A stretch of 64,000 nucleotides of DNA from an uncultured Ruficoccus sp. (GCA_965140785.1 OZ223496.1:143947-207946), one strand, 5' to 3'. Shown: positions 6,188 through 61,617, counted from the stretch's first letter. A program made the numbers and translations. Notes: generated from the sequence alone by a model not told the origin.

Positions 6188-6342
6188 GCGATTCAAAAAA
6201 TACTGTAGCCCGAATGGTTACATGGCTAAACGGCTGATGGTTAATTGCTGGATGCTGAGAGTAGAAAACAACAATTAGCCACTTAAACCATTTAGCCATT
6301 ATGCCTTTCGAAAGGGGCTACGATTTTATTTGAACCGCTCTA
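6188..6342. repeat. Nested inverted-repeat (MITE/REP-like) element
   Basis: Outer arms are gcgattcaaaaaatactgtagccc and gggctacgattttatttgaaccgctcta. Inner periodic arms lie at 6222-6250 and 6269-6299. Confidence 0.7.
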
Positions 6343-6396
6343 AACAAGCGATTTCCGTTTGGATGCCGCGGGGCTTGGGGGGCGCGGAGCCCCCGC

Positions 6397-7623
6397 TCAC
6401 TTCGGGTACACGAAGTCCGGCTGGGAGATGCTATTGAGGCGGCCGGAGGGCAGCTTGGTCTTTTTGCCGGTCTCGGTGTCGATGATCCAGAGGGTTTCCT
6501 GGCCGCGGGCCGAGTAGGTGGCCACGAGGTGGCGACCGTCGTTGAGCCAGCGCGGCTGGCTGAAGCTGCCGCCCCCGCCGGTGAGGAACTGGCTCTTGCG
6601 CCCAGACAGGTCGTAGAGCGCGATCTGGTAGCCGCCCCGGGTCGAGGCGGTAAAGGCGATGGTGTTGGCACCGGAAACCGGGTTCCAGGCCGGCTCCGTG
6701 CAGTAGCCGCTGATGTTCGTCGGCAGGCGGCTGGGACGGCCCCCGCGCGCCGAGACCACGAACAGCTGCGGTCCGCCGAGTTGGTCGCTGGTCAAGACCA
6801 GTTGGCCGCTGTCGGGCGACCAGTCCGGGTCGCTCTCCACGCTACGGCGGGTGCCCTGGGTAACGAGCTGCGGACGCTGCCCATCGGCCCCGGCCACGTA
6901 CACCTCGGGCGAACCGGAGGAAGACAGCACCATGGCGATGTTGCGCCCGGAGGGACTGAAGACCGCCCCGGTATTCGTCCCCTTGTAACCGGCCACCGTG
7001 ACGCGGCGGCCCGTGTCCAGATCGATGAGAAAGATATCCGGAAAGCCCGTGCGGTAGTAGCCGGTGTAAAGGAGCTTGCGCCCGTCGGGCGCCCAGCGCG
7101 GGTGCTGCGAGTAGGAGCCATCCTGGGTCAGGCGCTTGACGTTACGGAAAAACAGGTCGCTGGTGTAAATCTCCTGGCGCTTGCCGTTTGCGGTCACGAA
7201 GGCGAGCTTACCGGCGAAGTAGCCGGGCTTGCCCGTGGTGCGCAGGACGGCCAGGTCGGCGGCGCGCAGGGCGGCATCCATCAGGCTGTTGCCGCGAACG
7301 GTTTCGTTGAGCTGGGTCACCGCCGGACGTCCGGACTGGATCTGGAGATTGACGGCGTTCGCCCCCGCCGGATTGATGACAAAGTTAAAGGTGCCCGAAC
7401 CGGCCTTGACCACACGGAAGCCCCCGTGCGTAGAGAACGCGACCTCCAGCAGCCCGGCGATGTCGGCGTTTGAGCTGACGAGCGAGATCGCCTTCTCGCC
7501 ACGGTCGACGACGCCCTTGATCTCGCCCCCCTGCAAGGCCGATTGAGCGTGGGCGGCAGGACGGGCGGCAAAAAGGAGAGCGGACAGAGAAAGGAACCAG
7601 AAAAAGCGGGTGGCAACTGTCAT
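6397..7623 (-). CDS. tolB: TolB-like periplasmic beta-propeller protein
   Basis: Signal peptide from MTVATRFFWF; PD40-type repeats (HPRWAPDGR, AVFSPSGR, DPDWSPDSG, EPAWNP, QPRW). Confidence 0.85.
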   Translation of the reverse strand: MTVATRFFWFLSLSALLFAARPAAHAQSALQGGEIKGVVDRGEKAISLVSSNADIAGLLEVAFSTHGGFRVVKAGSGTFNFVINPAGANAVNLQIQSGRPAVTQLNETVRGNSLMDAALRAADLAVLRTTGKPGYFAGKLAFVTANGKRQEIYTSDLFFRNVKRLTQDGSYSQHPRWAPDGRKLLYTGYYRTGFPDIFLIDLDTGRRVTVAGYKGTNTGAVFSPSGRNIAMVLSSSGSPEVYVAGADGQRPQLVTQGTRRSVESDPDWSPDSGQLVLTSDQLGGPQLFVVSARGGRPSRLPTNISGYCTEPAWNPVSGANTIAFTASTRGGYQIALYDLSGRKSQFLTGGGGSFSQPRWLNDGRHLVATYSARGQETLWIIDTETGKKTKLPSGRLNSISQPDFVYPK

Positions 7624-7813
7624 ATCTCTAGAGACAAACAATTTCCTCCGCGCGTTGAAACGAAAATCGGGAAGAAAACACATTTTCTGCGCCTCCTCTC
7701 TTCTGGCGCGCATCCGCAACACCGATTTAGGCTTATTCTTCGTTTTTTTCCCGTAACCCTCACTGACCCTTGCCAAAGCTGGCATTTTCCACATGGGTAG
7801 AACTTTTCCACTC

Positions 7814-8890
7814 ATGAACGAAGACACGCTTTTAGCCGCCCTCAAGCAGGTGAAATACCCCGGATTCAGCCGGGACATCGTCTCCTTTGGCCTCGTCTCC
7901 GGCGCCAAGGTCGAAGGCAACCGCGCCGTGATCGGCCTGGCCGTGACCACCGCCGACGAGCGCATTCCCCCGCTGCTCAAGCAGGACGTGGAGCGCGCCC
8001 TCTCCCAGATCGAGGGCATCGAGGGCGCGGACGTCACCGTCACTGTGAGCGCGCCGAAGACACCCCCGCCCCCCGCCGGCGGTAAAAAGCGCGACGTCAC
8101 CGGCCCGGCCCAGCAACAGCTCCCCGGCGTGAAAAAGATCATCGCCGTCGCCTCCGGCAAAGGCGGCGTGGGCAAGAGCACTTTCGCCGTCAACCTCGCC
8201 TGCGCCTTTGACAAGCTCCTCTCCGAGCAGGGCCGCCCCCATCAGGTCGGCCTCATGGACTGCGACATTTACGGCCCCTCCGTCCCACTCATGATGGGCA
8301 TTAACTCACGTCCCGAGGTCCGCGACAACATGCTCACCCCGCTGGAGAACTTCGGCATCCGGGTCATGTCGATGGGCTTCCTGCTCGACGAATCCACCCC
8401 CGTGGTCTGGCGCGGCCCGATGGTCATGAAGACCATCCAGCAGTTCGCCGCCAATGTGGACTGGGGAGAAATGGACATCCTCGTGGTGGACCTGCCGCCG
8501 GGCACCGGCGACGCGCAGCTCTCGCTCGTGCAGACCCTGCCGCTGGACGGAGCCGTCATCGTGACCACCCCGCAGAGCGTGGCCGTCAACGTCACCCGCC
8601 GCGGGGCCATGATGTTCGGCAAGGTCAATGTCCCCCTACTCGGCGTGGCCGAAAACATGAGCTACCTCGAAAACCCGGACGGCTCGAAAAACTTTGTCTT
8701 CGGCCAGGGCGGCGGCGCCATCGCCGCGCGCGACCTGGAAACCGAGCTGCTCGGCCAGGTGCCGCTCGACCCGGCCATCGGCCAGGGCAGCGACCGCGGC
8801 ATCCCCATGGTCGTCGGCAGCCCCGACAGTACCGCCGGCGAATCCTTTGTCGCCATGGCGAAAACCCTACTGCAAAAACTCAACCTGTAG
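7814..8890 (+). CDS. mrp: Mrp/NBP35 (ApbC) Fe-S cluster carrier ATPase
   Basis: N-terminal FeS-assembly domain, ASGKGGVGKST Walker A, DCDIYGPS and DLPPGTGD. Confidence 0.93.
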   Translation: MNEDTLLAALKQVKYPGFSRDIVSFGLVSGAKVEGNRAVIGLAVTTADERIPPLLKQDVERALSQIEGIEGADVTVTVSAPKTPPPPAGGKKRDVTGPAQQQLPGVKKIIAVASGKGGVGKSTFAVNLACAFDKLLSEQGRPHQVGLMDCDIYGPSVPLMMGINSRPEVRDNMLTPLENFGIRVMSMGFLLDESTPVVWRGPMVMKTIQQFAANVDWGEMDILVVDLPPGTGDAQLSLVQTLPLDGAVIVTTPQSVAVNVTRRGAMMFGKVNVPLLGVAENMSYLENPDGSKNFVFGQGGGAIAARDLETELLGQVPLDPAIGQGSDRGIPMVVGSPDSTAGESFVAMAKTLLQKLNL

Positions 8891-9045
8891 AAAGTTGCCC
8901 CTGCACGTGATAGACTATCGGCTTGCCCGTTAAGGAGAAGACGCCCTCAATGCGGCTTTACAAACGCGGGACGTTCGGTATTACTAAAGTCACCTAAATG
9001 CTAATAACGCGATACGCTATCGCACCCAGGTCAACCCGGCCAGCC

Positions 9046-9270
9046 ATGAAAACCCCCTCACGCAGATCCCCCAGCAACGGTAAGGATTTCGTCCAGCGCT
9101 CCAGTTTGTATCAGGAGTTTCTGGCCGAGCGTGAGGAAATTCTCAAACACAAGTGGCTGGAATCCGAAAAAGCCGGTCATGACATTGGGTTCGAGCGGGC
9201 GCTCCTGGACTGGATTCGCAACCATCGTGACGACTGGCGGGCAGGCCGCCAGGCTCAACCGAGCAACTAG
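9046..9270 (+). CDS. Small DUF4032-like protein
   Basis: EREEILKHKWLESEKAGHDIGFERALLDW motif, which I recognise as typical of Verrucomicrobia. Confidence 0.75.
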   Translation: MKTPSRRSPSNGKDFVQRSSLYQEFLAEREEILKHKWLESEKAGHDIGFERALLDWIRNHRDDWRAGRQAQPSN

Positions 9271-9532
9271 CCCACGAGCGCCGGTGGACTGAGACAAGCC
9301 GCGGAAGGCTCCCATCCGCGGACAAGGGAGATTGCGTGACTTTATACTCCCAGGCAGCGAAATATCGACCGATGTAAAACTTGGCAAATTGCTTGCCTGC
9401 TGCCGGGGTAGTCGCCTCTCGGCGCCGTAGGGGCGTGGCCCCTGATCGCTGCTCCAGCCGGAGCCTGCATTTTTCTGCTTGCATCGTCGGGGGCAAGGGG
9501 TATGTTGGCACGCTTTTCAACACCCAGTAGCC

Positions 9533-9712
9533 ATGCCCAGAGACGTCGTAATCATCGAATGCACGGAAGCCCGCAAGGAAGGCAAGCAAGCCTCCCGCTA
9601 TATGACCACGCGCAATAAGAAGCTTTCCCAGGAAAAGGTTGAACTCAAGAAGTACAACCCGCACCTGCGCCGCCACACGGTGCACAAGGAAATCCGCAGC
9701 GCGGCCCACTAA
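9533..9712 (+). CDS. rpmG: 50S ribosomal protein L33
   Basis: RYMTTRNKK...[19 protein letters not shown]. Confidence 0.95.
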
Positions 9713-9738
9713 GCAGCGGAGCTGACAGTTTTTCACGG

Positions 9739-9769
9739 AACCGGCGTTCTAGGGACGCCGGTTTTTTTT
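9739..9769 (+). terminator. Rho-independent terminator of rpmG
   Basis: Stem aaccggcgtt / gacgccggtt followed by a T run. Confidence 0.85.
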
Positions 9770-10071
9770 GCAGGGCATGCCCTGCACCCTCGGTGCTAGC
9801 GCACCGGGATGCCTTTGCCGGGAGCAAAGGCATGGGCAACGGCGGTTAACGCCAACCCGAACGAACCTCGGGCCATCTCTTTGGCACGATGCCGTATCTT
9901 GAGAGGCTCGTGCGCTGACTCGCTGAGGCTCGCAGGGTGGCGCGGGTACAATACCGTCAATCACCTTTCACAGGTAAAGCCACCCTCCCTTCGGGGCAGG
10001 AGCCTTTCTGGCTCCGATGGGGCGTAGCCCCATCCAGATGCGGAGCATCTAGGGTGCAGGGCATGCCCTGC
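9770..10071. repeat. About 300-bp non-coding element bounded by ~42-bp inverted repeats
   Basis: 9770-9811 is inverted relative to 10031-10071. The first 21 bp (gcagggcatgccctgcaccct) match exactly and contain a 16-bp palindrome. Confidence 0.8.
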
Positions 10072-11495
10072 TAGAAGTCGATCTGGAGCTGGAGGCCCAG
10101 CACGAGCGCGTCGTCTAGCTGATTGGCGGCTCCGGGATTGATGACACCCTGGATGTTGGGCTGGACATAGAAATACTCCGTCACCTGATAGCGATAGCTC
10201 AGTTCCAGTTCGACTTCGTAGTCCTGCGGCGGCACGCCGGCCCGACTCTGGGAGTCCGAGTAGCTGCTGCTGAAGTTCAGCCAGGCCGCGCCGAAAGAGA
10301 GGATGTCCTTGTCCCGGCCCGGCAGGAGACCCCGGTAGTACAGCCCGCCGCTGGTGAAAAAGTCGGCGGCCTGGGCGACATCGTCGCTTCATGTTGAACT
10401 GCCCGCTGCTCCAGAAGTACAGCCCCTGAATTTGCTCCAGAAAGCCCTCGGACTGCCCCCACACCTGCTCGGCCTGCATGCGCTCGGAGTTTTCCTCCTG
10501 CACGGGAGTGCCCTCGCGGTAGAGGTTCTGCTCGATCAGGTAGTAGAAGCCGCCGATGTTGTGGGCTGTGCCCCCGGTATGCGTGGGAAAGGGACCGGTA
10601 AAAATCCAGCCGCCCAGGGCGTACTTGCCGGGCAGGCCCGTCGCGTTCTTGGACCAGTCCTTCTTGTAGCCGATCTCGGACATGATATTGGCCCCCTGAT
10701 TGAAATTGAAGCTGAAATCCGTCCCGTGGTTTATCCACGTCGGCCAGGCTATTGTCCGCCCCGTAGGCCCCGGCCATACCGTAGAAGCCGTCGTTATCCC
10801 CGGTCCGAACACCGCCGCGGATCAGCGCACCCCAAGTCGTGACCGGGTAGGCGTTGAACGACCCCATGAAAAAGAAACCGATCGGCTGCCCGTCGAAGGC
10901 GTTGTTCATGTAGAAGGCGAAGGCGTCGGAGTGCGAGAAGTCGTCAAACTGTGCGATACGTCCGGCCTTGATGGCGAAGTGCCCGTCCAGCAAGACCTGC
11001 TCCAGATAGAGGTTGACCAGGCGGTAACTCTCGTTGCCGTAAAGCTGCTGCACGTTGATCACGTTGTGAATCTTGCTCAGGGTGAGGCTGGTACCACTGC
11101 GCACCGACAGGCTGGTGAAGAAGGTCAGCCCCTCCAAACCGGCAAGCTTGTCCAAGTCCGCGCCAAAGTTGACCCCGGTGCTGTTGAGCTGAGTCACGCC
11201 CTGATCCTGCCCGCCGACGGGATTGCCCGCCACGTTAAGGGCGAAGGAAACGTTTCAGGTCGATCCCCATGTCCTCCAGCGCGGGGCGGGCGCCCCAGGC
11301 GTCGCCGAATAGGTAGTCGCGCGTGGCCATGTCTTCCCAGAAGGAATCGGGCTCAGACGCGCTCGTCTCCGTGGCGGTGGCCGCAGGCGTGGCCGGTAAA
11401 GCCGTATTCTCGACGGCTGGAGGCTCGGCGGCTTCAAGAACTCCGCCCGCACATAAGCACAGGCACAACAAACGAATCGGTAGGGGGGTACGCAT
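10071..11495 (-). CDS. OprB-family carbohydrate-selective porin (three single-base frameshifts)
   Basis: Signal peptide and LFGDAWGARPALEDMG start, then GNPVGG, and ends QPNIQGVINPG...VLGLQLQIDF* with a terminal Phe. The frame changes near 11255, 10730 and 10390. Confidence 0.85.
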
Positions 11496-11775
11496 CGTTC
11501 AAACAGGGGTTGGAGTGGACAGTGAACGAAACCGGCAAGTAACAGAAAATGCCAGGTTCCGTTATGGGGGTATCGCGTCTCATGCGCTGAGTTTAATCTA
11601 TACCAGTAAGCCCCCGACTAACAAGATAAATCGTATCCGTTTAACATGACAACGCCCTAACGGTGCGTCGATTTACCGACTGAAAAACGGCGGCGGGATT
11701 TCTCCGGTCAGGCCAGAAAAACGCTCCCGGCGGAAAAGCCTCGCAACCCGCGAAACCGGGTCACAGAACGCCGGA

Positions 11776-13131
11776 TTAAAGGCTGCTTGAGTGCGAGCGT
11801 ACAATCAGCGGCAGCATCTGCCCACGCCGGAATAGCGTGACCTGCCCGCTGCTGGCGGAAACCACCATCGCGATGCAGTCGGTGGCGATGGAGATGGCGT
11901 TGGCCGCGGCGTGACGGGTACCCAGACCGCTGGGCAGCTCGTGGCTGTAGTCCGGGGCGTGAATCATACTCCCGGCCGCCTCCAGCACACCGTCGCCGTT
12001 GATCAGGAACGCCCCGTCGATGAAGGAGAATTCCTTCACCGTCTCGTCCATGAAGGGATTGAGGATGTTGCGCTCCTCCCGCTCGTAGCCTTGAAAGGGG
12101 TTGAGCACGAGCTGCTTCACGTAGGGCTTGATCTTCTCGGCCTCGCCGATGACAAAGAGCGTGCCGATCGGCTTGCCCTCACGGCCCTCGACGGAGAGCT
12201 CGGTGGCGATGCCGAGCACACGCTCGAGGACCTCCGGCTTGACCGAGGCCGGCAGCATATCGCTCTGGCGGGTGAAGACCGACTGGAACTCCCGCTCTAC
12301 ATCCACCACCACCAGCGTGTCGAACTGATTACTCTGCGGGATGCCTCCGACGCAGCAGAGCCGCTCGTTACTCTTGATCAGGCCGCGGGTCAGCCCGATG
12401 AGCATCGCGCTGCGCAACTGGGAAAGGCGGTTGAAGCCGAACGCGCGCACCGGGATAATGGAGTTGAAGGCGCGCTTGGCCTGCGCCACCTCCGAGACTG
12501 ACTGGGTGACGAGCAGGGTTTTGAAGTCCCCGAAATCGTCGGCGGCGTCCACGCCCCCGGCAAAGGTATCCCCAAAAACCATGACCGCTGAGCACTTTGC
12601 GCCGGTGGCGATCTTGACGGCCTCACGCAGGATGAGGCGGTTAAATTTGTTGTCCTTGGTGCGCTTCTGGTCGCGCGGCCGGCCAAAGGCGTCAGCCACG
12701 TTCTTGCGCAACGTCTCGACATCGGGCGAGGCGATGAGCCGCTCGACCATAGCAGGCTCCTGAAAAGTCCGCGCGAGCGAGGCCAATACATTGAGGTAGG
12801 ACTTTTCACGCTCGGAGGCCAGCAGCAGGAAAATCAATCGCAGGTCCTTGTACTCGCCGTGCCCGTCGAACTCCAGCCCGTCCGGGCAACGTCCGATAGC
12901 GAACATGTACGGACGCTTCATCGGGATGCGCACGTGCGGCAGGGCAATCCCGCTGCCCAGATAGGTCGTCATCGTCTGCTCCCGCTCCAGTAGCTCCTCC
13001 AGCAACTGCTTGCGGTTGAACTTCTGGCCGGGCGTGTCGCAGACCTCGAGCAGTTCCTTCAGCGCACCTTCGAGGTCACGGCTGACCAGGTCGACAATCC
13101 GGTTTTTGGCGATGTAACGGTCCAGGCGCAT
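11776..13131 (-). CDS. Fusion of PTS EIIA (Ntr/Fru-type) domain and diadenylate cyclase (DisA_N) domain
   Basis: N-terminal REQTMTTYLGSGIALPH (EIIA phospho-His motif); C-terminal IDGAFLI and GLGTRHAAA cyclase motifs. Confidence 0.88.
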   Translation of the reverse strand: MRLDRYIAKNRIVDLVSRDLEGALKELLEVCDTPGQKFNRKQLLEELLEREQTMTTYLGSGIALPHVRIPMKRPYMFAIGRCPDGLEFDGHGEYKDLRLIFLLLASEREKSYLNVLASLARTFQEPAMVERLIASPDVETLRKNVADAFGRPRDQKRTKDNKFNRLILREAVKIATGAKCSAVMVFGDTFAGGVDAADDFGDFKTLLVTQSVSEVAQAKRAFNSIIPVRAFGFNRLSQLRSAMLIGLTRGLIKSNERLCCVGGIPQSNQFDTLVVVDVEREFQSVFTRQSDMLPASVKPEVLERVLGIATELSVEGREGKPIGTLFVIGEAEKIKPYVKQLVLNPFQGYEREERNILNPFMDETVKEFSFIDGAFLINGDGVLEAAGSMIHAPDYSHELPSGLGTRHAAANAISIATDCIAMVVSASSGQVTLFRRGQMLPLIVRSHSSSL

Positions 13132-13305
13132 GAGAGACTCAGGGGTTGGCAGTCGGTTCGGAGGGTGAGGAAACGGAAAAGGGAACGCCGGCGAACATTC
13201 GGGCGGCTCGCGGCTCAGGTTCAAACCAAACCGGCGGCTGCCTTCTCAGGCGAACGTGCGCTGTTTTGCTTCCCTGGGTTTCTGCCATCCGCTTACTGTC
13301 CTAAC

Positions 13306-27354: not shown

Positions 27355-27591
27355 GACTGACGAAAAAGGCTGATCGCAAATACGCCCACCGGAATGATGA
27401 CCCGGCGGCGAAAAACCCAGGCCGACTTGCCCCGGGCGCTTGCACCATCTATTATTCAAACACAAATTTCATTAATAGCTTGCGCTGTCAAGCGATTAAC
27501 CTTAACTTTATTTGAATAATCGCTAAAAAAAACCTTAGACATGCCGCCGGTTTCCGATAACTGAAGGGGATACCCCTTACTTTTCCCATCT

Positions 27592-47226: not shown

Positions 47227-48780
<1,554 letters not shown>

Positions 48781-48803
48781 GCCGCCTGACGCTTCCGCTT
48801 TCG

Positions 48804-48838
48804 AGCCCCTCTCCGGAACGTCCGGCGAGGGGCTTTTC
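48804..48838 (+). terminator. Terminator downstream of the sulfatase gene
   Basis: agcccct-ctccgga...tccggcg-aggggct followed by ttt. Confidence 0.65.
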
Positions 48839-48871
48839 AGTACCTCGGTGTGACACCTGCCATCGTGATAC

Positions 48872-49145
48872 TAGAGCACTTTCGTTTTAATCTGTCGCCC
48901 TCGGCTGAGCTGATTTTAAGTTCTGGCAAGGCTCTTTCAAGGGACTTGGGCTGGAAGCCCTGGCCCCTTGAAAGGAACGCCGCCAGGCTTAAAATCAGCC
49001 AGTCCATTCGGATGGGGTCTGTCTTGCGGCTCGCGGCGTTGGCTGGGGGACTTACGGGCTTCCAGCCCGCTACGCCCCCAGCCGCCTGGCGAGCCTTCAA
49101 GACATTTCCCCACCGAGTGCGACTGATTAAAACGAAAGTGCTCTA
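48872..49145. mobile_element. MITE-like element, 274 bp, with 33-bp terminal inverted repeats and two internal hairpins
   Basis: Terminal repeats at 48872-48904 and 49113-49145 match at 31/33 positions and end in TA (TAGAGC...GCTCTA). No credible ORF inside. Confidence 0.8.
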
Positions 49146-49194
49146 TTTTCAAACTGGAATGATGAACTTGGGTCTTCTCAGAAAGGATCGTTTT

Positions 49195-49270
49195 TTTAAT
49201 AGGGAGGTCGGGAAGTCGGAGAGAGTGGGTCGCTACTTTCTTTTCGATCTTCCCGACCTTCCTGTTAAAT
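49195..49270. repeat. Cargo-free hairpin of the repeat family that flanks the GxxExxY gene
   Basis: 49248-49270 (tcttcccgaccttcctgttaaat) is identical to 58005-58027 and pairs with the left arm that starts at 49195. Confidence 0.85.
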
Positions 49271-49316
49271 CCCACTCTTTTGAGCAAAGCAGATGGAAGG
49301 GGTAGAAAATGGCACC

Positions 49317-50099
49317 TCACCCCTTCCCCCGCAACTGGCGTGGAGAACAGCCGAAGACCCGGCGGATGACCTTGTTGAAGTGCTGGAGGTCGGGGAGCCC
49401 GACTTCACAGGCCACGACCTTGACCGAAAGGTCCGAGTGGACCAGCAATTCGCGGGCGCGGTCCGTGCGCAGCTTGCGCAGCCAGGCTTGCGGAGTCATG
49501 CCGGTGTGGCGCTTGAGGACGCGGATGAACTGGTTGTGAGAGACCCGGCAGCGGCGGGCCAGCTCGGCCACGGTCGGGCAGGCGGCCATCTCCTGCTGAC
49601 AGATGCGGGCGGCCTGGTCCACCAACCGCAGATGGGTGGTTGATTCGTGCGGACAGCGCTCCACCGCCGCCAGGCCGAAAAGCACATCCCATAATCGCGC
49701 GTCAGTGCGCCGGGGGTCTTCCTCGCGGTAGCCGACCACCTCCAGCAGACGTTCCCGCAGCGCATCCAGCCGCGCCTCCGCCGGGAAAAACCGCGCCCGC
49801 ACGCGCGGGGCCGATGGCGGTACCGGCAGGCGGAAATGCGTGTACAGATGCTCCGAGCGCCCACGATAAAAATACGTGACCGCCTGTCCCGGAGGGACCA
49901 GTGAGACCGAACCCGGATGCAGTGAAAAGGTCTCCTCACCGGCCAGCAGTTCACCCTCGTAGCCGTAGAAGTGCAAGGCCCAGCAATCCCTTAGCAGAAA
50001 GCTCTCCCGGTCCACATGCTGGCCATGAACGACACAGGCCAGCCGCAGGGCTTCGGGAGGATTCCGCAAGCATTGGACCCAGGGGCAATCATTATCCAT
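49317..50099 (-). CDS. AraC-family transcriptional regulator
   Basis: SVKVVACEVGLPDLQHFNKVIRRVFGCSP. Confidence 0.9.
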   Translation of the reverse strand: MDNDCPWVQCLRNPPEALRLACVVHGQHVDRESFLLRDCWALHFYGYEGELLAGEETFSLHPGSVSLVPPGQAVTYFYRGRSEHLYTHFRLPVPPSAPRVRARFFPAEARLDALRERLLEVVGYREEDPRRTDARLWDVLFGLAAVERCPHESTTHLRLVDQAARICQQEMAACPTVAELARRCRVSHNQFIRVLKRHTGMTPQAWLRKLRTDRARELLVHSDLSVKVVACEVGLPDLQHFNKVIRRVFGCSPRQLRGKG

Positions 50100-53991: not shown

Positions 53992-54022
53992 GCCAGACGA
54001 AGGGCTCCCCTCTACATCTGCG

Positions 54023-55855: not shown

Positions 55856-55941
55856 GCGGGTCAAATAGTCCGCCAGCCGGACTGTTTGGTTGACCTTGGC
55901 CAGAAATCTGCTTTGTTGGATTGTTTGAATCCATTCCGGTC

Positions 55942-56343
55942 ATGACCGTCGAAATCCTCAAAAGTAAAATCCTCCGGGCAGAAGTCACCGAAGCCGAAGC
56001 GGACTATGAAGGCAGCCTTGCCATTGACAAGAGCTTCATGGAGCGCATCGGCCTGCTGCCCTACGAAAAAATCCTGGTCGGTAACATCACCAACGGCGAG
56101 CGGCTGGAAACCTACGCCATTGAGGCGCCCGCCGGCTCCGGCACCTTCGCCCTCAACGGCGCCGCCGCCCACAAGGGCAAGCCCGGCGACCTGCTGGTGA
56201 TCATGAACTTCGCGCAGATGCCGTACGAGGAAGCCAAGATCTGGAAGCCCCGCGTCGTCGTGCTGGCCGACCACAACCGCACGATCATTAAGGAGCGCGG
56301 GCCCGACGGCGAAACCGGCGAGCCCTTCCGCGTTGCCTCCTGA
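55942..56343 (+). CDS. panD: Aspartate 1-decarboxylase
   Basis: YEGSLAID self-cleavage site, NGERLETY and NGAAAH. Confidence 0.93.
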
Positions 56344-56465
56344 TCGCCCCCGATTCAGGGGATTTTTACCGTAATGAAAGCCCCCGCACGGGCTTCTATT
56401 TGTCCGCCGTGCCCGCAAACTCTGTTGACGGCAGCGCGGATTCTGTTTCGCTAAGCAACTTTTCC

Positions 56466-57548
56466 ATGAGCTATAAACTCTTCATTCCCGGTCCGATCCA
56501 GGTGTCGGAAAAAACCTATCGCGCCATGACGACGCCCGTCGTCGGCCACCGCAGCAAGGACTTCGTGGAGCTGTTCCAGTCCGTCCAGCCCCGGCTCCAG
56601 CAGCTTTTTTACACGCAGGACCCGGTCTTCATCAGCACCAGCAGCGCCTGGGGCGTGATGGAAGGCTCCCTGCGCAACGTGGTCAAAAAGAAGGTCCTCA
56701 ACTGCTGCTCGGGCGCCTTCTCGGACAAGTGGTACGACGTCTCCCTGCGCTGCGGCCTCCAGGCCAAGGAACTCAAGTATGAGTGGGGCACCCCGATCGA
56801 CCCCGAGGACATCCGCAAGGAGCTGGCCACCGGCGAATTCGACGCCATCACGATTATCCACAACGAGACCTCGACCGGTACCATGAACCCGATTGAGGAC
56901 ATCGCCGCGGTGCTCAAGGAGTTCCCCGACGTGATTTCCATCGTGGACACGGTCAGCTCGTTCTCGGCCATGAAGATCGATAAGGACGCGCTCGGGCTCG
57001 ACGTCATGCTGACCGGCTCGCAAAAGGCCCTCGCCCTGCCCCCCGGCCTGGCGCTGCTCTCCGTCTCGGAAAAGGCCCTCCAGCGCGCCGAGACCGTGGA
57101 TGACCGCGGCTACTACTTCGATTTCGTCGAGTTCAAGAAGAACTACGACAAGGGCATGACCCCGAGCACGCCGGTCATTCCGCTCATCTACGCGCTCAAG
57201 AGCAAGCTGGAGGACATCTTCGAGGAGGGACTGGAAGCCCGCTACGCCCGCCACCAGCGCCTGAACAACCTCGTGCGCGACTGGATTACCAAAAACGGCA
57301 TGGAGCTGCTCCCGCCGCCCGAATTCGGCTCGGTCACGCTCAACTGCATCAAGAACCTGCGCGAAATCGACCTGCCCAAGCTCAACGAAGCCCTCAAGAG
57401 CCAGTACCACTGCGTCATCGACGGCGGCTACGGCAAGCTCAAGGGCAAGGCCTTCCGTATCTCCAACATGGGCGACGAGACCGACGCAACCATGGCCGAG
57501 CTGCTCAGCGCCCTGGACACCCTCCTGCCCGAGTTCGCAGCCAAGTAA
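56466..57548 (+). CDS. Class V PLP aminotransferase (serine-pyruvate/alanine-glyoxylate type)
   Basis: FIPGP, HNETSTG, DTVSS and GSQKALALPPG. Confidence 0.92.
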   Translation: MSYKLFIPGPIQVSEKTYRAMTTPVVGHRSKDFVELFQSVQPRLQQLFYTQDPVFISTSSAWGVMEGSLRNVVKKKVLNCCSGAFSDKWYDVSLRCGLQAKELKYEWGTPIDPEDIRKELATGEFDAITIIHNETSTGTMNPIEDIAAVLKEFPDVISIVDTVSSFSAMKIDKDALGLDVMLTGSQKALALPPGLALLSVSEKALQRAETVDDRGYYFDFVEFKKNYDKGMTPSTPVIPLIYALKSKLEDIFEEGLEARYARHQRLNNLVRDWITKNGMELLPPPEFGSVTLNCIKNLREIDLPKLNEALKSQYHCVIDGGYGKLKGKAFRISNMGDETDATMAELLSALDTLLPEFAAK

Positions 57549-57554
57549 AGGGTT

Positions 57555-57590
57555 AATATTTAACAGGAAGGACGGAAAGAAGCGGAAAGG
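57555..57590 (+). repeat. Left inverted-repeat arm of the GxxExxY cassette
   Basis: aatatttaacaggaagg (57555-57571) is the exact reverse complement of 58014-58030; the imperfect match extends to the ATG. Confidence 0.9.
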
Positions 57591-57992
57591 ATGCACGACA
57601 AATACGAAAGAGCCGACGGACTGACAAAAGCTGTCATTGACTCGGCCTTTCGTGTGCACCGCCATTTCGGTCCCGGACTGCTTGAATCTATCTACCAGAA
57701 GGCCCTTTCGCGTGACTTGACGCTGGAAGGCCTCCAGATAGAGACCGAGCTGACTATTCCGATCGAATACCGCGGTGCGGTCTTCACCGAATATGTCCGC
57801 GCCGATATCTTTGTCGAAAAATCCCTGCTGGTGGAACTGAAGGTCTCAGAGGCGTTCCGCCCGGAGCATATCTCCCAGACCCTCAGCTACATGAAGCTGC
57901 TCGATGTTCCGATCGGGTTGATTTTCAACTTCTTTGAATCCGAGTTCCGGAAAGGAATTCGCAGGTTAACCTTGAAAGGTGCCGATAAATAG
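57591..57992 (+). CDS. GxxExxY protein (PD-(D/E)xK nuclease-like fold)
   Basis: GPGLLESIY motif, RADIFV...VELKV, and 133-aa length. Confidence 0.92.
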   Translation: MHDKYERADGLTKAVIDSAFRVHRHFGPGLLESIYQKALSRDLTLEGLQIETELTIPIEYRGAVFTEYVRADIFVEKSLLVELKVSEAFRPEHISQTLSYMKLLDVPIGLIFNFFESEFRKGIRRLTLKGADK

Positions 57993-58030
57993 CCCTTCTT
58001 CCGTTCTTCCCGACCTTCCTGTTAAATATT
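57993..58030 (-). repeat. Right inverted-repeat arm of the GxxExxY cassette
   Basis: cccttcttccgttcttcccgaccttcctgttaaatatt starts immediately after the stop codon. Confidence 0.9.
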
Positions 58031-58032
58031 CC

Positions 58033-60543
58033 ATGAAAACCCTTGTCATAGCGGAGAAACCCAGTGTCGCCGGCGACCTTGCCCGCGTCCTCGGACGCAT
58101 TCCTAAAAAAGGCGACCACTACGAGAATGACGAATACGTCATCGACTCGGCGGTCGGTCACCTCGTCGAGCTCATCATGCCTGAGGACATCAGCGCCGAC
58201 TACAAACGCTGGACCCTCAAGACGCTCCCCATCGTCCCCAAGACCTTCAAGCTCCGCCCCATTGACAAGACGAAGAAGAAGTTTCAGGAGCTCAAAAAGC
58301 ACATCGCCCGCGACGATGTCGGCATGATCATCAACGCCTGTGACGCCGGACGCGAGGGCGAGCTGATCTTCACCTACATCATGGAGCTGGCCAAGGGTAA
58401 CAAAAAGGAAATCCGCCGCCTGTGGATGTCCTCCATGACCCCGCAGGCCATCCGCGACGCTTTCGCCAACCTGCGCTCCGCCGACGAGATGCGTCCCCTC
58501 CAGGACGCCGCCCGCTCCCGCTCCGAAGCCGACTGGCTGATCGGGATCAACGGCACCCGCGGGGCCACCGTGCAGTTTGGCCGCCGCGGCGGCACCGCCG
58601 CCACTGTCGGGCGCGTCCAGACCCCCACCCTGACCCTCGTTTACGAGCGCGAGTGCGAGATCCGCAACTTTAAGTCCCGCCCTTACTGGCGCATCCTGGC
58701 CGACTTCGGCGTCCACGCCGGCGAGTACCCGGGCGTTTACCAGAAACCGGGCTTCAAGAAGGGCGATGACGAGCACGACCGCGCCGACCGCCTCTGGGAA
58801 AAGGAGCAGGCCGAGCAAATCCTGCGCGAGGTCCAGGCCGCCGGCACCGCCGCCGTGACCGAGGAAAAGAAGCGCAGCAAGCAGGCCTCCCCGCGCCTTT
58901 ACGACCTGACCACCCTCCAGCGCGAGGCCAACAACCGCTACGGCTTCCCGGCCGGGATGACCCTCAACATCGCCCAGGCCCTCTACGAGAAGCACAAGAT
59001 GATCACCTACCCGCGAACGGATTCGCGGGCCCTCCCCGAGGACTACGGCCACACCGTGCGCGACACCCTGGCCAGCCTGCCCGAACCCTATGCCGTGCAC
59101 GCCGAGAAAGTCCTCGGCAACGACTGGGTCCACACCGGCAACAAGCGTATCTTTAATAACAAGCAGGTCAGCGATCACTTCGCCATCATCCCGACCAACA
59201 CCTCCCCGAAGAAACTCCAGGAGCGCGAGCAGAAGATCTACGACATGATCACGCGGCGCTTCATGGCGGTGTTCTTCCCCTCGGCCGAGTACGATGTGAC
59301 CACCCGCATGAGCGCGCTCGGCGGCCACACCTTTAAGACCGAGGGCAAGGTGCTCGTCGTCCCCGGCTGGCTCGAAGTTTACGGCAAAGGCGGCAACGGC
59401 GAAGACAACCTCCCCCCGCTCTCCCCCGAGGACGGCTCTCCCGCGCAAGCCAAGCTCGCGCAGGCCCAGATGGAAGAAGACCAGACCCGCCCGCCCCCGC
59501 GCTACACCGAGGCCACCCTCCTGGCTGCCATGGAAGGCGCGGGCAAGTTCGTCGAGGACGAGGAGCTGCGCGAAGCCATGAAGGAACGCGGTCTGGGCAC
59601 CCCCGCTACCCGCGCCGCCACCATCGACCACCTGGTCAAAGAGCGCTACATCGAGCGCGAAGGCCGCGAGCTGGCCCCGACCCAGAAGGCCGAGGATCTG
59701 GTCAAATTCCTGCGCACCTTCAAGATCGACGCCCTCACCCGCCCCGAACTGACCGGCGAGTGGGAACACAAGCTGCGCCAGATGGAGGAGGGCGAACTCT
59801 CCCGCGAGCAGTTCATGCAAGGCATCACCTCGATGACCGAGGAGATGATCAAAAACCTCAACGCCCCGCCCCCAGCCAAGGAGACCCACCTGCGCTCCCC
59901 CCTCGACGACACCCCGCTGCTCGAAGACCACCGCGCGTGGTTCTCGCAGGAGTCGCTCGATGTGCGCGGTCGCGCCATCCCGAAAGTTTCCGTCAACAAG
60001 GTCATTGGCAACCGCAAGCTCGTCCCCGACGAGGTCGAACAGCTCCTGAAAAAGGGCGAGATCGGCCCGCTCGACGGCTTCAAATCGCGCCAGGGCAAGG
60101 CCTTCTCCGCCCTGCTCAAGCTGGCCGAAAAAGATAACGGCTCCCTCCGCGTCGAGCTCGACTTCGGCGACAGCGGCAACGACGATGAGGACATCGACCT
60201 GTCGCAGTTCCCCGTCGTAGGCACCTCGCCGGTGGATGGCTCCCCCGTCCACGAGACGCCCAACGCCTACATCTCCGAGGGTAAAGACGCCAAAGGCAAG
60301 GCCACCTTCCGCATGAGCCGCAACATGCTCGGCAAAGCCCTCCCGCCCGAGCAGATCAAGAAACTTCTGACCGAGAAAAAGACGGACCTGATCAAGGGCT
60401 TCCGCTCGAACCGCACCAAGCGCCTTTTCGACGCCTTCCTCATTCTCAAGGACGATGGCAAGATCGGCTTCGAGTTTCCCCCGCGCCCGCCGCGCAAAAA
60501 GGCGGCTAAAAAAGCGGCCAAAAGTGCCGAGCAGGAAGGCTGA
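58033..60543 (+). CDS. topB: DNA topoisomerase III (type IA)
   Basis: IAEKPSVA, NACDAGREGE, GRVQTPTL and ITYPRTDS, with C-terminal repeats and a basic tail. Confidence 0.92.
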   Translation: MKTLVIAEKPSVAGDLARVLGRIPKKGDHYENDEYVIDSAVGHLVELIMPEDISADYKRWTLKTLPIVPKTFKLRPIDKTKKKFQELKKHIARDDVGMIINACDAGREGELIFTYIMELAKGNKKEIRRLWMSSMTPQAIRDAFANLRSADEMRPLQDAARSRSEADWLIGINGTRGATVQFGRRGGTAATVGRVQTPTLTLVYERECEIRNFKSRPYWRILADFGVHAGEYPGVYQKPGFKKGDDEHDRADRLWEKEQAEQILREVQAAGTAAVTEEKKRSKQASPRLYDLTTLQREANNRYGFPAGMTLNIAQALYEKHKMITYPRTDSRALPEDYGHTVRDTLASLPEPYAVHAEKVLGNDWVHTGNKRIFNNKQVSDHFAIIPTNTSPKKLQEREQKIYDMITRRFMAVFFPSAEYDVTTRMSALGGHTFKTEGKVLVVPGWLEVYGKGGNGEDNLPPLSPEDGSPAQAKLAQAQMEEDQTRPPPRYTEATLLAAMEGAGKFVEDEELREAMKERGLGTPATRAATIDHLVKERYIEREGRELAPTQKAEDLVKFLRTFKIDALTRPELTGEWEHKLRQMEEGELSREQFMQGITSMTEEMIKNLNAPPPAKETHLRSPLDDTPLLEDHRAWFSQESLDVRGRAIPKVSVNKVIGNRKLVPDEVEQLLKKGEIGPLDGFKSRQGKAFSALLKLAEKDNGSLRVELDFGDSGNDDEDIDLSQFPVVGTSPVDGSPVHETPNAYISEGKDAKGKATFRMSRNMLGKALPPEQIKKLLTEKKTDLIKGFRSNRTKRLFDAFLILKDDGKIGFEFPPRPPRKKAAKKAAKSAEQEG

Positions 60544-60548
60544 ACCTT

Positions 60549-61160
60549 ATGTTAAAAATTCCTCCCGGCGATTTCGACGGCGCCATCTTCGACTGCGACG
60601 GCACCCTGGCCGACTCTATGCCCGTGCATTACCACGCCTGGGTAAAGGCCTTCAAGGCGCACGGGGCGAAGTTCGACTTTCCCTGGGACCTGTTCTACTC
60701 CATGGCCGGGACCGGCCTGGAAGACTCCGTCATCCAGCTCAACGCCCGCTTCAAGGACCGCCTCGACCCCAAGGCCGTGGTCAAGACCCAGATGGAGATG
60801 CTCGACCAGCTCCACCACGAGGTCACGCCTATCGTCGAGGTCGTCGAGCTGGCCCGCCACTACGCCGAAACCGGCAAAAAAGTCTCCGTCTCCTCCGGCG
60901 GCACCTACCGCCACGTCCACGAGACCCTCCACAACATCGGCGTGCACGACCTCTTTCCGGTCATCATCACCCGCGAAGACTACGCCCACAGCAAGCCCGC
61001 CCCGGACTGCTTCCTGCTCGCCGCCGAACGCATGGGCGTAAAACCCGAGAGCTGCCTCGTCTTCGAGGACAGCCACCTCGGCATCGCCGCTGCCGAATCC
61101 GCCGGCATGGCCTCCGTCTATGTCCAACCCGAAGCCTACTCCAAAGGCGCGGGAATTTAG
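60549..61160 (+). CDS. HAD-family phosphatase (YqaB/beta-PGM-like)
   Basis: FDCDGTLADS, KPAPD and FEDS. Confidence 0.92.
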   Translation: MLKIPPGDFDGAIFDCDGTLADSMPVHYHAWVKAFKAHGAKFDFPWDLFYSMAGTGLEDSVIQLNARFKDRLDPKAVVKTQMEMLDQLHHEVTPIVEVVELARHYAETGKKVSVSSGGTYRHVHETLHNIGVHDLFPVIITREDYAHSKPAPDCFLLAAERMGVKPESCLVFEDSHLGIAAAESAGMASVYVQPEAYSKGAGI

Positions 61161-61167
61161 GATTTAA

Positions 61168-61211
61168 GAGCAGGTCTCGAAGCGCACGAAGAAGACACGA
61201 AGATCACGAAG
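61168..61211 (+). repeat. Left inverted-repeat arm (CACGAAG units)
   Basis: 61184-61211 matches the reverse complement of 61574-61601 at 27/28 positions. Confidence 0.88.
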
Positions 61212-61220
61212 GTTTGAAGA

Positions 61221-61541
61221 TTAAGCCCGTAACACCATCAGATTATCGCTGCATCCGGACAACAGATTGACAACGGCTCCCACCACTTTGTGAAAAAGCA
61301 TGCAAGACTCAGTGCCCTGCATAAGGAGGTACTGTTGATAACCGTCACCCGGATCAACTAACTTCGTCGTCACTGTGTTGCCTGTCGCAGGATCTAGCCA
61401 ATTAGTGTCGTAACCTTCGCCAGACACGAATCCATCCCAGTCCCTCAGCTCGTGGGACAAATCAACTGGCACCGAAAAATAAGAATATATCCTGAGCTGA
61501 TTCGTCATCCTAGAGCCTTCCTTGAATGCATCAATGGGCAT
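61221..61541 (-). CDS. Hypothetical low-GC protein enclosed by inverted repeats
   Basis: 106-aa ORF filling nearly all the space between the arms; composition is atypical for the window. Confidence 0.6.
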   Translation of the reverse strand: MPIDAFKEGSRMTNQLRIYSYFSVPVDLSHELRDWDGFVSGEGYDTNWLDPATGNTVTTKLVDPGDGYQQYLLMQGTESCMLFHKVVGAVVNLLSGCSDNLMVLRA

Positions 61542-61573
61542 GATCTGACTTGAGATATAATGGGCAGGTTCAG

Positions 61574-61617
61574 CTTTGTGATCTTCGTGTCTTCTTCGTG
61601 CCCTTTGTGACCTTCTC
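61574..61617 (-). repeat. Right inverted-repeat arm (CTTCGTG units)
   Basis: ctttgtgatcttcgtgtcttcttcgtgccctttgtgaccttctc, ending 3 bp from the menB stop codon. Confidence 0.88.

What the first reader, a model, noticed from the sequence alone, without database searches (positions are those of the whole stretch)
6188..61617. Candidate system: periodic-hairpin gene cassettes, in several arm families, loaded and empty
Seen: three unrelated arm families share one design within 64 kb. Each is a 30-45 bp inverted repeat built from 7-11 nt tandem units with strong strand asymmetry, placed in intergenic gaps. They are the GGAAG type (loaded at 57555-58030, empty at 49195-49270), the CACGAAG type (loaded at 61168-61617) and the ATGGCTAA type (empty at 6222-6299). 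No transposase or integrase is in the window, and the only recognisable cargo is a nuclease-fold protein. Inference: this may be a dispersed, non-IS gene-cassette system defined by structure rather than sequence, possibly mobilised or processed by GxxExxY-like proteins. I cannot verify from the sequence alone that it is undescribed.
Basis: inference. Interest (0 to 1): 0.78.

Follow-up and report, generated by a model that had tools for sequence, protein, structure and literature searches.

The report
Hairpin-boxed mini-gene cassettes and relics
Small genes, mostly for a tiny nuclease, sit inside long DNA hairpins whose arms are short tandem repeats, and many gene-less copies of these hairpins lie between ordinary genes; the design resembles the intervening sequences of ribosomal RNA genes and recurs in many bacterial phyla.

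Summary
Three of the four inverted repeats are strong; the one at 6222-6299 is weak and lies inside a 155-bp dispersed repeat. The pattern is genome-wide: 70 non-redundant intergenic hairpins with tandem-unit arms, 45 further GGAAG-type arm matches and 55 solo arms. All five GxxExxY loci and both four-helix-bundle loci of this genome lie between such arms. Across phyla, 55 of 78 GxxExxY loci have flanking inverted repeats, against 24 of 3406 control genes. The arm families are not unrelated, and arm type follows cargo type. The window's GxxExxY cassette is old, inherited vertically through three genera and under strong purifying selection. It is lost or replaced in sister species. The architecture matches the ORF-bearing intervening sequences of 23S rRNA, but here it sits between protein genes. 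How the elements move, and whether RNA processing occurs, remains untested. My seven paper searches found no description of the gene-hairpin link. The Geobacter metallireducens genome paper recorded similar paired repeat sites. This scan had already noted the same thing in at least 30 other genomes.

The parts
57555..57581 (.). 5' arm of the loaded GGAAG-type cassette (tandem GGAAG/GGAAA units). The cargo's ATG follows about 10 nt after the listed arm and directly after the paired region.
57591..57992 (+). Cargo gene: a 133-aa GxxExxY protein with a PD-(D/E)XK nuclease fold. The catalytic D72/E82/K84 positions are conserved.
58004..58030 (.). 3' arm of the loaded GGAAG-type cassette. The topoisomerase ATG lies just behind it.
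49195..49269 (.). Gene-less GGAAG-type hairpin (21-nt arms, 33-nt loop). It is not present in the shorter orthologous spacers of G001 and G003.
61168..61211 (.). 5' arm of the CACGAAG-type element (four units).
61221..61541 (-). A 106-aa orphan ORF filling the loop. It is co-oriented with the enoyl-CoA hydratase gene upstream of it. Its coding status is uncertain.
61574..61617 (.). 3' arm of the CACGAAG-type element.
6222..6299 (.). Weak ATGGCTAA-type hairpin, the inner part of a roughly 155-bp dispersed repeat (6188-6344).

Best explanation
These are members of one widespread class of palindromic intergenic elements. Two inverted arms, each made of 3-5 tandem purine-rich units of 7-11 nt, enclose either one small gene that fills the loop or only a short unique loop. 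The enclosed gene is a GxxExxY nuclease, a four-helix-bundle '23S rRNA IVS' protein, or occasionally an orphan ORF. A loaded element works like an ORF-bearing intervening sequence of 23S rRNA placed between protein genes. It has no promoter of its own and lies co-oriented inside host gene strings, so it is transcribed by read-through. Its 27-44 bp terminal stem would form in that transcript and be cut by RNase III. That cut would release the cargo mRNA and separate it from the host message. The cassette in this window is a long-term resident: it is vertically inherited, and both the protein and the arm sequence are under constraint. Gene-less hairpins and solo arms are derivatives, arising by loss of cargo and, for some families, by MITE-like spread. 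Arm pairing is kept at the DNA (Watson-Crick) level, probably by repeat slippage and template switching within the palindrome together with selection. Shown: anatomy, association, conservation, turnover and polarity. Inferred: read-through expression, RNase III cutting, and the way the derivatives arise and spread.
For: Association in this genome: all 5 PF13366 loci and both PF05635 loci lie between tandem-unit arms, each with its own unit type. Across phyla, 55 of 78 testable GxxExxY loci have a flanking inverted repeat scoring 15 or more. Median element length is 503 nt and the stop codon lies a median 11 nt from the 3' arm. In the phylum, 23 of 28 testable four-helix-bundle loci have such repeats. 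The control in this genome is 8 of 770 small and 16 of 2636 larger genes. Likeness to IVS: the Coxiella IVS is 428 nt with a 28-bp terminal stem, an S23p ORF in the loop and RNase III cuts in mid-stem (PMC4990558, abstract and passages). Resident status: the cassette occupies the same aminotransferase-topoisomerase spacer in G000, G003, G012, G014 and G007. All five copies are 133 aa, dN/dS is 0.06-0.08, and synonymous differences between genera are 0.82-0.90. The terminal stem has 29 pairs, most of them invariant and 5 with compensatory double changes. Orientation: the cargo is co-directional with the upstream gene at 56 of 68 and with the downstream gene at 52 of 62 callable cross-phylum loci. 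The nine loaded elements of this genome are co-oriented with the gene upstream. Placement: the 70 elements lie in 42 tandem, 23 convergent and 5 divergent spacers, against 2299/673/647 spacers genome-wide, and they often fill the spacer to within 30 nt. Polarity: 111 arms have their partner on the expected side and 0 on the other. Turnover: sister species carry other unit types, other cargo or no hairpin at the same spacers.
Against: No RNA data could be obtained, so neither transcription nor cutting was shown. Isolated mismatches in the arms are not enriched for G.U on the cargo's sense strand: 18 are G.U-compatible and 38 are A.C (similar). This gives no sign that pairing is selected in the sense RNA. 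The window's elements lie between protein genes, and this genome's 23S rRNA gene has no insertion. Loops of gene-less hairpins show no remnant of GxxExxY genes, so derivation by cargo loss is not demonstrated for them. Only one case, the G004 spacer, looks like a deletion derivative by eye. The periodicity of the arms is not explained by an RNase III role.
Confidence: 0.5

Rival explanations
1. A repeat-and-nuclease partnership like REPIN-RAYT. Each single-copy GxxExxY nuclease (and, in its own cassettes, the four-helix-bundle protein) recognises the unit array of its own arms. It cuts or copies gene-less hairpins of the same unit type and so spreads and maintains them. The gene flanked by its own repeats would be the master copy.
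For: Arm type follows cargo type: 30 of 52 against 0 of 23. Each loaded cassette of this genome has gene-less arms of the same unit type elsewhere in the genome. The gene is single-copy, vertically inherited and under purifying selection, as I recall is reported for RAYTs. The nuclease catalytic residues are conserved in 76 aligned sequences. Some families are amplified in one species only, for example the 155-bp repeat with about 40 listed copies in G003 against 2 in G000. Genomes with the orthologous cassette have 45, 90 and 24 GGAAG-type arm matches. REPINs are inverted REP doublets next to a RAYT (PMC3116915, abstract).
Against: Genomes without the orthologue still carry many GGAAG-type arms (G002 37, G008 33, G004 13). 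These genomes are relatives of one another and not independent. A PD-(D/E)XK nuclease alone has no known strand-transfer chemistry (established knowledge). Four-helix-bundle cargo is not a nuclease. Loops within a family are unrelated and unique: 45 of 50 loops match only themselves, unlike copies of a replicating unit. GxxExxY paralogues in this genome are only 27-38% identical, so there has been no recent copying of loaded elements.
Confidence: 0.27
2. Host hairpins first. The tandem-unit palindromes would be host elements, such as arrays of binding sites for a nucleoid or regulatory protein, or mRNA-stability or insulating structures at gene ends. Small selfish genes would have settled in their loops secondarily.
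For: The hairpins are depleted from divergent (promoter) spacers and enriched in convergent ones. Gene-less hairpins far outnumber loaded ones. The Geobacter metallireducens genome paper recorded 24, 21 and 8 pairs of sites made of tandem hepta- to nonanucleotide repeats on opposite strands at variable distance, and proposed that global regulators (IHF/HU) bind them (PMC2700814, passages). rRNA IVSs replace the tips of existing helices (PMC4990558).
Against: Arm type follows the cargo, and five different types coexist in one host. Unit types differ between species at the same spacer, and many relatives have none there. In the nine CGCAAAG-type elements that I read, T runs precede the stem and A runs follow it, the reverse of an intrinsic terminator. 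No Rfam family matches.
Confidence: 0.13
3. A by-product of mutation with no function. Slippage would create the tandem units, and template switching in near-palindromes would perfect the pairing at any intergenic hairpin. The genes between arms would be there by coincidence.
For: Unit arrays can expand: 12 copies of an 8-nt unit at C18:108002-108102 and 12 of a 7-nt unit at C10:695984-696070. Pairing is Watson-Crick rather than wobble-tolerant. The unit sequence changes in all units and both arms together between species.
Against: The association with two particular gene families is about 70-fold above the control rate and holds across phyla. Arm sequence is conserved while synonymous sites are saturated. 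Polarity is strict, 111 to 0.
Confidence: 0.05

Closest known systems
ORF-bearing intervening sequences (IVS) of bacterial 23S rRNA genes (Coxiella burnetii, Leptospira; S23p / PF05635 ORF)
   Same: Both have a total length of about 430-500 nt, terminal inverted repeats that form a stem of about 28 bp or more, and one ORF of about 120-130 aa filling the loop. Neither has a promoter of its own and both are carried in a host transcript. Two cassettes of this genome hold the same protein family.
   Different: Here the elements lie between protein-coding genes, and this genome's 23S rRNA has none. The commonest cargo is a GxxExxY nuclease. The arms are tandem 7-11 nt units, and gene-less and solo-arm copies abound. 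RNase III cutting is proven for IVSs and is only inferred here.
REPIN-RAYT systems (REP doublets forming hairpins, with a REP-associated tyrosine transposase)
   Same: Both comprise many short intergenic hairpins built from inverted repeat pairs, together with a single-copy, vertically inherited gene that is itself flanked by the same repeats.
   Different: The flanked gene is a PD-(D/E)XK nuclease or a four-helix-bundle protein, not a Y1 HUH transposase. The genome's two Y1 genes carry a different repeat. Loops are unique rather than conserved, and the arms are tandem arrays.
Paired tandem-repeat sites of Geobacter metallireducens (classes 1-3, Aklujkar et al. 2009)
   Same: In both, sites of 3-5 tandem hepta- to nonanucleotide repeats are paired on opposite strands at variable distance in intergenic DNA. 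Geobacter GxxExxY loci in my sample carry GCAACG-type arms whose complement fits the class 1 consensus.
   Different: That paper read them as binding sites for global regulators. In the passages I read it draws no link to enclosed genes. I did not read its supplementary tables.
STRR (short tandemly repeated repetitive) sequences of heterocyst-forming cyanobacteria
   Same: Both are tandem heptamer-type units in intergenic DNA that can lengthen helices. This is recalled knowledge; I saw only search listings.
   Different: STRRs are described, as far as I recall, as repeat arrays without an enclosed gene and in one phylum only. I did not compare them here.
MITEs whose inverted ends form RNase III-cleaved hairpins in mRNA (Correia/NEMIS elements of Neisseria; recalled, not read here)
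   Same: Both are inverted-repeat elements co-transcribed with flanking genes.
   Different: MITEs have conserved internal sequence and a parent IS. Most families here have unique loops and no transposase. Only the 155-bp and about 150-bp families behave like MITEs.

Membership tests
GxxExxY protein family (TIGR04256 / Pfam PF13366 PDDEXK_3) | Match to the family profiles above the curated cut-offs | tested here: met
   PF13366 scores 116.2 bits against a cut-off of 22. TIGR04256 scores 115.6 bits against a cut-off of 35.
GxxExxY protein family (TIGR04256 / Pfam PF13366 PDDEXK_3) | PD-(D/E)XK fold with the D...ExK catalytic residues | tested here: met
   D72 and K84 are invariant and E82 is at least 90% conserved in 76 sequences. 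The model has pLDDT 96.3. The nearest solved folds are Cas4, lambda-exonuclease-like nucleases and Hjc, with weak TM scores of 0.4-0.57.
ORF-bearing 23S rRNA intervening sequence (IVS) | Inserted at a helix tip of the 23S rRNA gene | tested here: not met
   The window elements lie between protein genes. The genome's 23S gene matches the model over 2788 nt with no insertion.
ORF-bearing 23S rRNA intervening sequence (IVS) | Terminal inverted repeats forming a long stem that encloses one small ORF | tested here: met
ORF-bearing 23S rRNA intervening sequence (IVS) | ORF of the S23p / PF05635 family | tested here: not met
   The window's cargo is a GxxExxY protein and an orphan ORF. Two cassettes elsewhere in the genome do hold PF05635.
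ORF-bearing 23S rRNA intervening sequence (IVS) | Excision from the transcript by RNase III cuts in the stem | not testable with these tools
   No RNA run is listed for this sequence.
REPIN-RAYT | Associated gene is a Y1 (HUH) tyrosine transposase, PF01797, flanked by the repeats | tested here: not met
   The two PF01797 genes (C10:480168, C43:224747) are flanked by a different, non-periodic inverted repeat.
REPIN-RAYT | Inverted repeat doublets forming hairpins, many per genome, in extragenic space | tested here: met
REPIN-RAYT | The whole doublet, spacer included, is conserved among copies | tested here: not met
   45 of 50 loops match only themselves, and there is no true loop-to-loop similarity.
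MITE | Conserved internal sequence, and a parent IS with transposase | tested here: not met
   Loops are unique. No transposase family was found in the 55 window gene calls. Exception: the 155-bp repeat at 6188-6344 is conserved over its whole length.
MITE | Target-site duplication at the ends | tested here: inconclusive
   Many elements begin TTAAC and end GTTAA. This is part of the palindrome, and I could not define any empty-site comparison with clean ends.
Intrinsic transcription terminator | Short G+C-rich stem followed by a U run | tested here: not met
   Stems are 21-44 bp and loops reach 426 nt. In the CGCAAAG-type elements that I read, T runs precede the stem and A runs follow it on both strands.
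Integron gene cassette | A single attC site at the 3' end of each cassette, and an IntI integrase with attI nearby | tested here: not met
   Arms flank both sides of the gene. No integrase family was found among the window gene calls. No attC model was run.

The most novel reading that the evidence does not exclude
The tandem units are recognition arrays for the protein they enclose. Each small cargo protein would bind the repeats of its own arms: the GxxExxY nuclease on C[AG]CNNAG-type units, and the ring-forming four-helix-bundle protein on its C-poor units. On this reading the cassettes form a self-recognising, cross-phylum class of mobile or addictive gene cassette. That class would be distinct from insertion sequences, integron cassettes and REPIN-RAYT, and it would be the long-sought source of the ORF-bearing intervening sequences of rRNA genes.
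Probability: 0.3. Interest if true: 0.85.

Novelty: new variant of a known kind. Interest (0 to 1): 0.66.

Why it matters
GxxExxY and four-helix-bundle '23S rRNA IVS' proteins are annotated in thousands of genomes with no known function. The origin of rRNA intervening sequences has been open since the 1990s; the Coxiella paper still calls it unclear. If both protein families live in one kind of tandem-repeat hairpin frame, mostly outside rRNA genes, the IVSs become a special case of a much larger element class. That gives concrete experiments: protein against its own arm units, and RNase III mapping. It also explains a large share of the unexplained intergenic palindromes in Verrucomicrobiota, Planctomycetota, Bacteroidota, Proteobacteria and other phyla. 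These include sites earlier read as regulator-binding sites in Geobacter. Practically, the arms mislead gene callers and assemblers, and they mark hot spots of spacer turnover between species.

Tried and rejected
- **Expression.** No RNA holder is listed for the stretch.
- **Laying contigs of runs X1-X3.** One low-depth contig skips 57549-58031 and one skips 61216-61572, in both cases with what lies between unknown. They may come from a related organism in the sample or from arms of a paralogous hairpin, so I do not count them as strain polymorphism. One X2 contig skips 48733-49537 cleanly. X3 laid nothing.
- **Databases without a hit.** No Rfam family matched at the gathering score on the whole window or at E up to 1 on 57400-61800. 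The GxxExxY profile matched no solved structure by sequence. Four cargo proteins had no PADLOC hit.
- **The 106-aa ORF.** The homologue search returned only the query itself.
- **Remnants in gene-less loops.** My own GxxExxY HMM found nothing better than E = 6.9 in 119 open segments of loops. I did not run those segments against Pfam and built no four-helix-bundle HMM.
- **Distant partners for solo arms.** Within 15 kb there were 6 on the expected side and 5 on the wrong side, that is, just neighbouring elements.
- **Test for RNA-level pairing.** There was no excess of sense-strand G.U.
- **Fold search.** It gave only generic nuclease folds.
- **First periodicity filter.** The filter was too noisy, picking up coding and AT-rich repeats, and I replaced it.
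- **Paper searches that found no account of the gene-hairpin link:** 'GxxExxY'; 'rRNA intervening sequence protein' / 'four helix bundle protein'; STRR; heptanucleotide repeats + Geobacter + palindromic; PDDEXK_3 / PF13366 / TIGR04256 / TIGR02436; S23p + intervening sequence + RNase III + 23S rRNA; 'S23 ribosomal protein' + inverted repeat + intergenic.
- **Earlier findings by sequence.** The look-up found nothing.
- **Comparison left out.** I did not compare the unknown cargo ORFs of G000, G003 and G004 with each other, so it stays open whether they form a third cargo family.


Full report
**What is in the window.** The window is G000:C25:143947-207946 of a 4.36-Mb, 50-contig assembly.
- Arms at 61168-61211 and 61574-61617 are 44 nt long, 89% complementary and 362 nt apart.
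- Arms at 57555-57581 and 58004-58030 are 27 nt long, 93% complementary and 422 nt apart.
- Arms at 49195-49215 and 49249-49269 are 21 nt long, 90% complementary and 33 nt apart.

The arms consist of tandem units, GGAAG-type or CACGAAG-type, with 1-4 nt spacers. The gene-less hairpin at 49190-49275 folds far better than shuffles (z = -6.5). The one at 6215-6305 does not stand out (z = -1.9). Single arms do not fold on themselves.

The loop at 57591-57992 encodes a 133-aa GxxExxY / PDDEXK_3 protein. The loop ORF at 61221-61541 (- strand, 106 aa) has no family and no homologue other than itself. None of my 55 rough gene calls in the window matches a transposase or integrase family.

**The pattern is genome-wide.** My inverted-repeat scan of the whole genome (10-nt seeds, loops up to 2.5 kb) gave 300 pairs with arms of 20 nt or more. 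Of these, 103 had arms of at least 24 nt and at least 85% complementarity, and dozens of those were built of tandem units. Anchoring on tandem-unit arrays gave 77 candidate elements. After merging and removing genic and low-G+C-contig cases, 70 non-redundant intergenic elements remained.

The GGAAG type escaped that screen. Its 3'-arm pattern has 45 matches in G000, against 1-2 for the reversed control.

Unit types include CACGAAG, CACAGAG, CGCAAAG, CGCGAAG, CACRGAT, CACAAAA, GTTTGAGA, AATGGCTA, GGTCATT, GTKCTTWG and an 11-nt CGGATGAA type. Most loops are 8-230 nt; nine elements hold an ORF.

Of 166 arms found by unit patterns, 111 have a complementary partner within 1.5 kb. The partner is always on the side that puts the purine-rich version 5' (111 to 0). 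The other 55 are solo arms. Apparent distant partners of solos are just neighbouring elements.

**Genes in the loops.** The genome has five PF13366 loci, one of them broken, and two PF05635 loci.
- All five GxxExxY loci lie between tandem-unit arms, each of a different unit type.
- One four-helix-bundle gene lies between GTTTGAGA arms.
- The other has short 16-nt GTGCTTAGT-type arms, scoring 13.5 against a maximum of 12.0 in 200 shuffles.
- Two more loaded elements hold orphan ORFs: C14:33640-34115 and the window's CACGAAG element.

The four intact GxxExxY paralogues are only 27-38% identical but keep the GxxExxY motif and the D/E/K residues. They are therefore old lineages, not recent copies.

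As a control I ran the same flank test on my gene calls for the genome. It was positive for 8 of 770 genes of 80-170 aa and for 16 of 2636 larger genes, and several of those eight are the cassettes themselves.

**Across phyla.** A scan of one genome per species returned 80 GxxExxY loci. They come from Planctomycetota, Verrucomicrobiota, several proteobacterial classes, Bacteroidota, Chloroflexota, Acidobacteriota, Gemmatimonadota, Ignavibacteriota, a Nostoc plasmid and others.
- Of 78 loci with enough flank, 55 have a flanking inverted repeat scoring 15 or more. Twenty shuffles per locus mostly peaked at 9-14.5.
- The arms are again tandem 8-9 nt units.
- Median element length is 503 nt (interquartile range 462-581).
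- The stop codon lies a median 11 nt from the 3' arm.

PF05635 was found in 44 of 61 sampled Verrucomicrobiota genomes. Of 28 testable four-helix-bundle loci, 23 have such arms.

Arm type follows cargo type. At least two adjacent C[AG]CNNAG units occur in the 5' arm of 30 of 52 GxxExxY cassettes and of 0 of 23 four-helix-bundle cassettes. The arms of the latter are more varied and poor in C. The families are therefore not unrelated, and the class is not defined by structure alone.

**History of the window's loaded cassette.** I compared the aminotransferase-topoisomerase spacer in 20 relatives.
- The same GGAAG-armed GxxExxY cassette is present in G003 (same genus), in G012 and G014 (a second genus) and in G007 (a third).
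- Two species of the same genus (G001, G002) have only a short ordinary hairpin there.
- G004, G008, G011, G013 and G015 have gene-less tandem-unit hairpins of other unit types.
- G009 has other sequence with an unrelated ORF.
- More distant genomes have short spacers without hairpins.

All five orthologues are 133 aa. dN/dS is 0.08 (G000 against G003) and 0.06 (G014 against G012). Synonymous differences between genera are 0.82-0.90, which is saturation. In the alignment of the five cassettes the terminal stem has 29 pairs. Most are invariant, five show compensatory double changes, and the breaks are mostly A.C. Both the protein and the arm sequence are therefore under long-term constraint. 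This is a resident gene, not a decaying parasite.

**Turnover at the other sites.**
- At the HAD-hydrolase / enoyl-CoA-hydratase spacer, G000 has CACGAAG arms with the orphan ORF.
- G003 has a homologous CACAAAG left arm followed by a different 146-aa ORF.
- G002 has a gene-less CACAGAG hairpin.
- G004 has a 132-aa ORF without arms, and G001 has other repeats.
- The gene-less GGAAG hairpin at 49195-49269 and a 275-bp repeat beside it lie in a 597-nt spacer. The same spacer is only 93-125 nt in G001 and G003.
- The weak hairpin at 6222-6299 is the core of a 155-bp repeat. That repeat has about 40 listed copies in G003, two in G002 and one other in G000.

Species-level presence and absence is therefore shown, and for at least this family, amplification too.

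**What the gene-less copies are.** Among 50 loops of 40 nt or more there is no true loop-to-loop similarity. Forty-five loops match nothing else in the genome. An HMM built from 40 GxxExxY sequences finds no remnant in the loops. Loop G+C has a median of 0.48, against about 0.60 for the genome.

Most families are thus repeated arms around unique loops, unlike MITEs or REPINs. Two families are conserved over their whole length: the roughly 150-bp CGCGAAG element and the 155-bp element.

**Placement and orientation.** The 70 elements lie in 42 tandem, 23 convergent and 5 divergent spacers, against 2299, 673 and 647 spacers genome-wide. By my arithmetic that is about 1.8-fold enrichment in convergent and 0.4-fold in divergent spacers, with chi-square near 12 on 2 degrees of freedom. 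The elements often fill the spacer to within 30 nt on both sides.

The nine CGCAAAG-type elements I read are preceded by T runs and followed by A runs, the reverse of an intrinsic terminator. Cargo is co-directional with the upstream gene at 56 of 68 and with the downstream gene at 52 of 62 callable cross-phylum loci. In G000 all nine loaded elements are co-oriented with the gene upstream (the C26 case by reading the sequence).

**RNA or DNA?** No RNA run is listed. Isolated mismatches in the arms are not enriched for G.U on the cargo's sense strand: 12 + 6 are G.U-compatible against 25 + 13 that are A.C (the looser count agrees). That fits slippage plus template switching within the palindrome. 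It does not exclude a role for the stem in RNA.

**Possible mobilising genes.** The genome has two Y1 (RAYT/IS200-like) genes. They are flanked by their own non-periodic repeat, so they do not account for the periodic arms.

GGAAG-type arm counts are 45, 90 and 24 in the three sampled genomes that hold the orthologous gene. They are 37, 33, 13, 2, 1, 1, 0 and 0 in the family's eight sampled genomes without it. This is suggestive of a link but not strict, and the genomes are related to one another.

The predicted structure is confident (pLDDT 96.3). It resembles Cas4, lambda-exonuclease-type nucleases and Hjc only weakly. There is no solved relative by sequence and no defence-system model hit.

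**Comparison with what is known.**
- The closest architecture is the ORF-bearing IVS of 23S rRNA. It is 428 nt long, has a 28-bp terminal stem and an S23p ORF in the loop, is cut by RNase III in mid-stem, and is of unclear origin (PMC4990558, abstract and passages).
- The closest system logic is REPIN-RAYT (PMC3116915, abstract).
- The G. metallireducens genome paper recorded 24, 21 and 8 pairs of tandem hepta- to nonanucleotide repeat sites on opposite strands. It proposed that they bind regulators (PMC2700814, passages). I did not read its supplements.
- The PD-(D/E)XK survey lists PDDEXK_3 as of unknown function with multiple transfers (PMC3424549, one passage).
- Seven full-text searches found no account of the gene-hairpin link.
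- This scan had already noted the same association in at least 30 other genomes (31 findings). Those are unchecked AI notes that agree with my result but are not independent support.

**Verdict.** It is wrong that the arm families are unrelated, and it is untested on mobilisation. I file it as a new variant of a known kind: IVS-like cassettes outside rRNA, with repeat-array arms and many gene-less relatives.

Noticed in passing
window 48871-49145: A 275-bp inverted-repeat element (arms at 48866-48904 and 49113-49151, 39 nt, 90% complementary). At least 8 further copies in G000 are 91-98% identical, and G003 has weaker copies. It is MITE-like and distinct from the tandem-unit hairpins.
   Followed up: partly
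window 9765-10076: An inverted repeat with 33-nt arms, 88% complementary and 246 nt apart, built round a GCAGGGCATGCCCTGC palindrome. A similar pair lies at C32:30725-31227. This is another repeat family.
   Followed up: no
G000 C10:480070-481078 and C43:224651-225655: Two Y1_Tnp (RAYT/IS200-like) genes of 309 aa. Each lies between 27-29 nt inverted repeats of a non-periodic family that also occurs at other places on C12 and C43.
   Followed up: partly
G000 C47:135485-136069 and C10:84936-86050: Perfect or near-perfect 40-48 nt non-periodic inverted repeats. One encloses a 90-aa ORF and the other about 1 kb. The family is unexplained.
   Followed up: no
G000 C18:108002-108102 and C10:695984-696070: Expanded arrays of one arm unit, about 12 tandem copies of GTTTGAGA and of CCAATGA. 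This shows that the units can grow by slippage.
   Followed up: no
G000 contigs C9, C15, C20, C28, C41, C44: These contigs have 28-49% G+C in a genome of about 60% G+C. They may be contamination or foreign DNA in the assembly. I left them out of the element counts.
   Followed up: no
window 48733-49537: One contig of run X2 joins 48732 to 49538 with no differing letters. It skips the 275-bp repeat, the gene-less hairpin and the ends of both flanking genes. This is either a deletion variant or an assembly joint.
   Followed up: no
window 27451-27520: An AT-rich 32-nt palindrome with a 6-nt gap, lying between the efflux-pump operon and a TetR-family regulator gene. It looks like an operator.
   Followed up: no
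L136 (G003) and L137 (G004), HAD/ECH spacer: Small ORFs of 146 and 132 aa, each with a hydrophobic N-terminal stretch, occupy the spacer that holds the orphan ORF in G000. I did not establish whether they are related to each other or to the C14 cargo.
   Followed up: no
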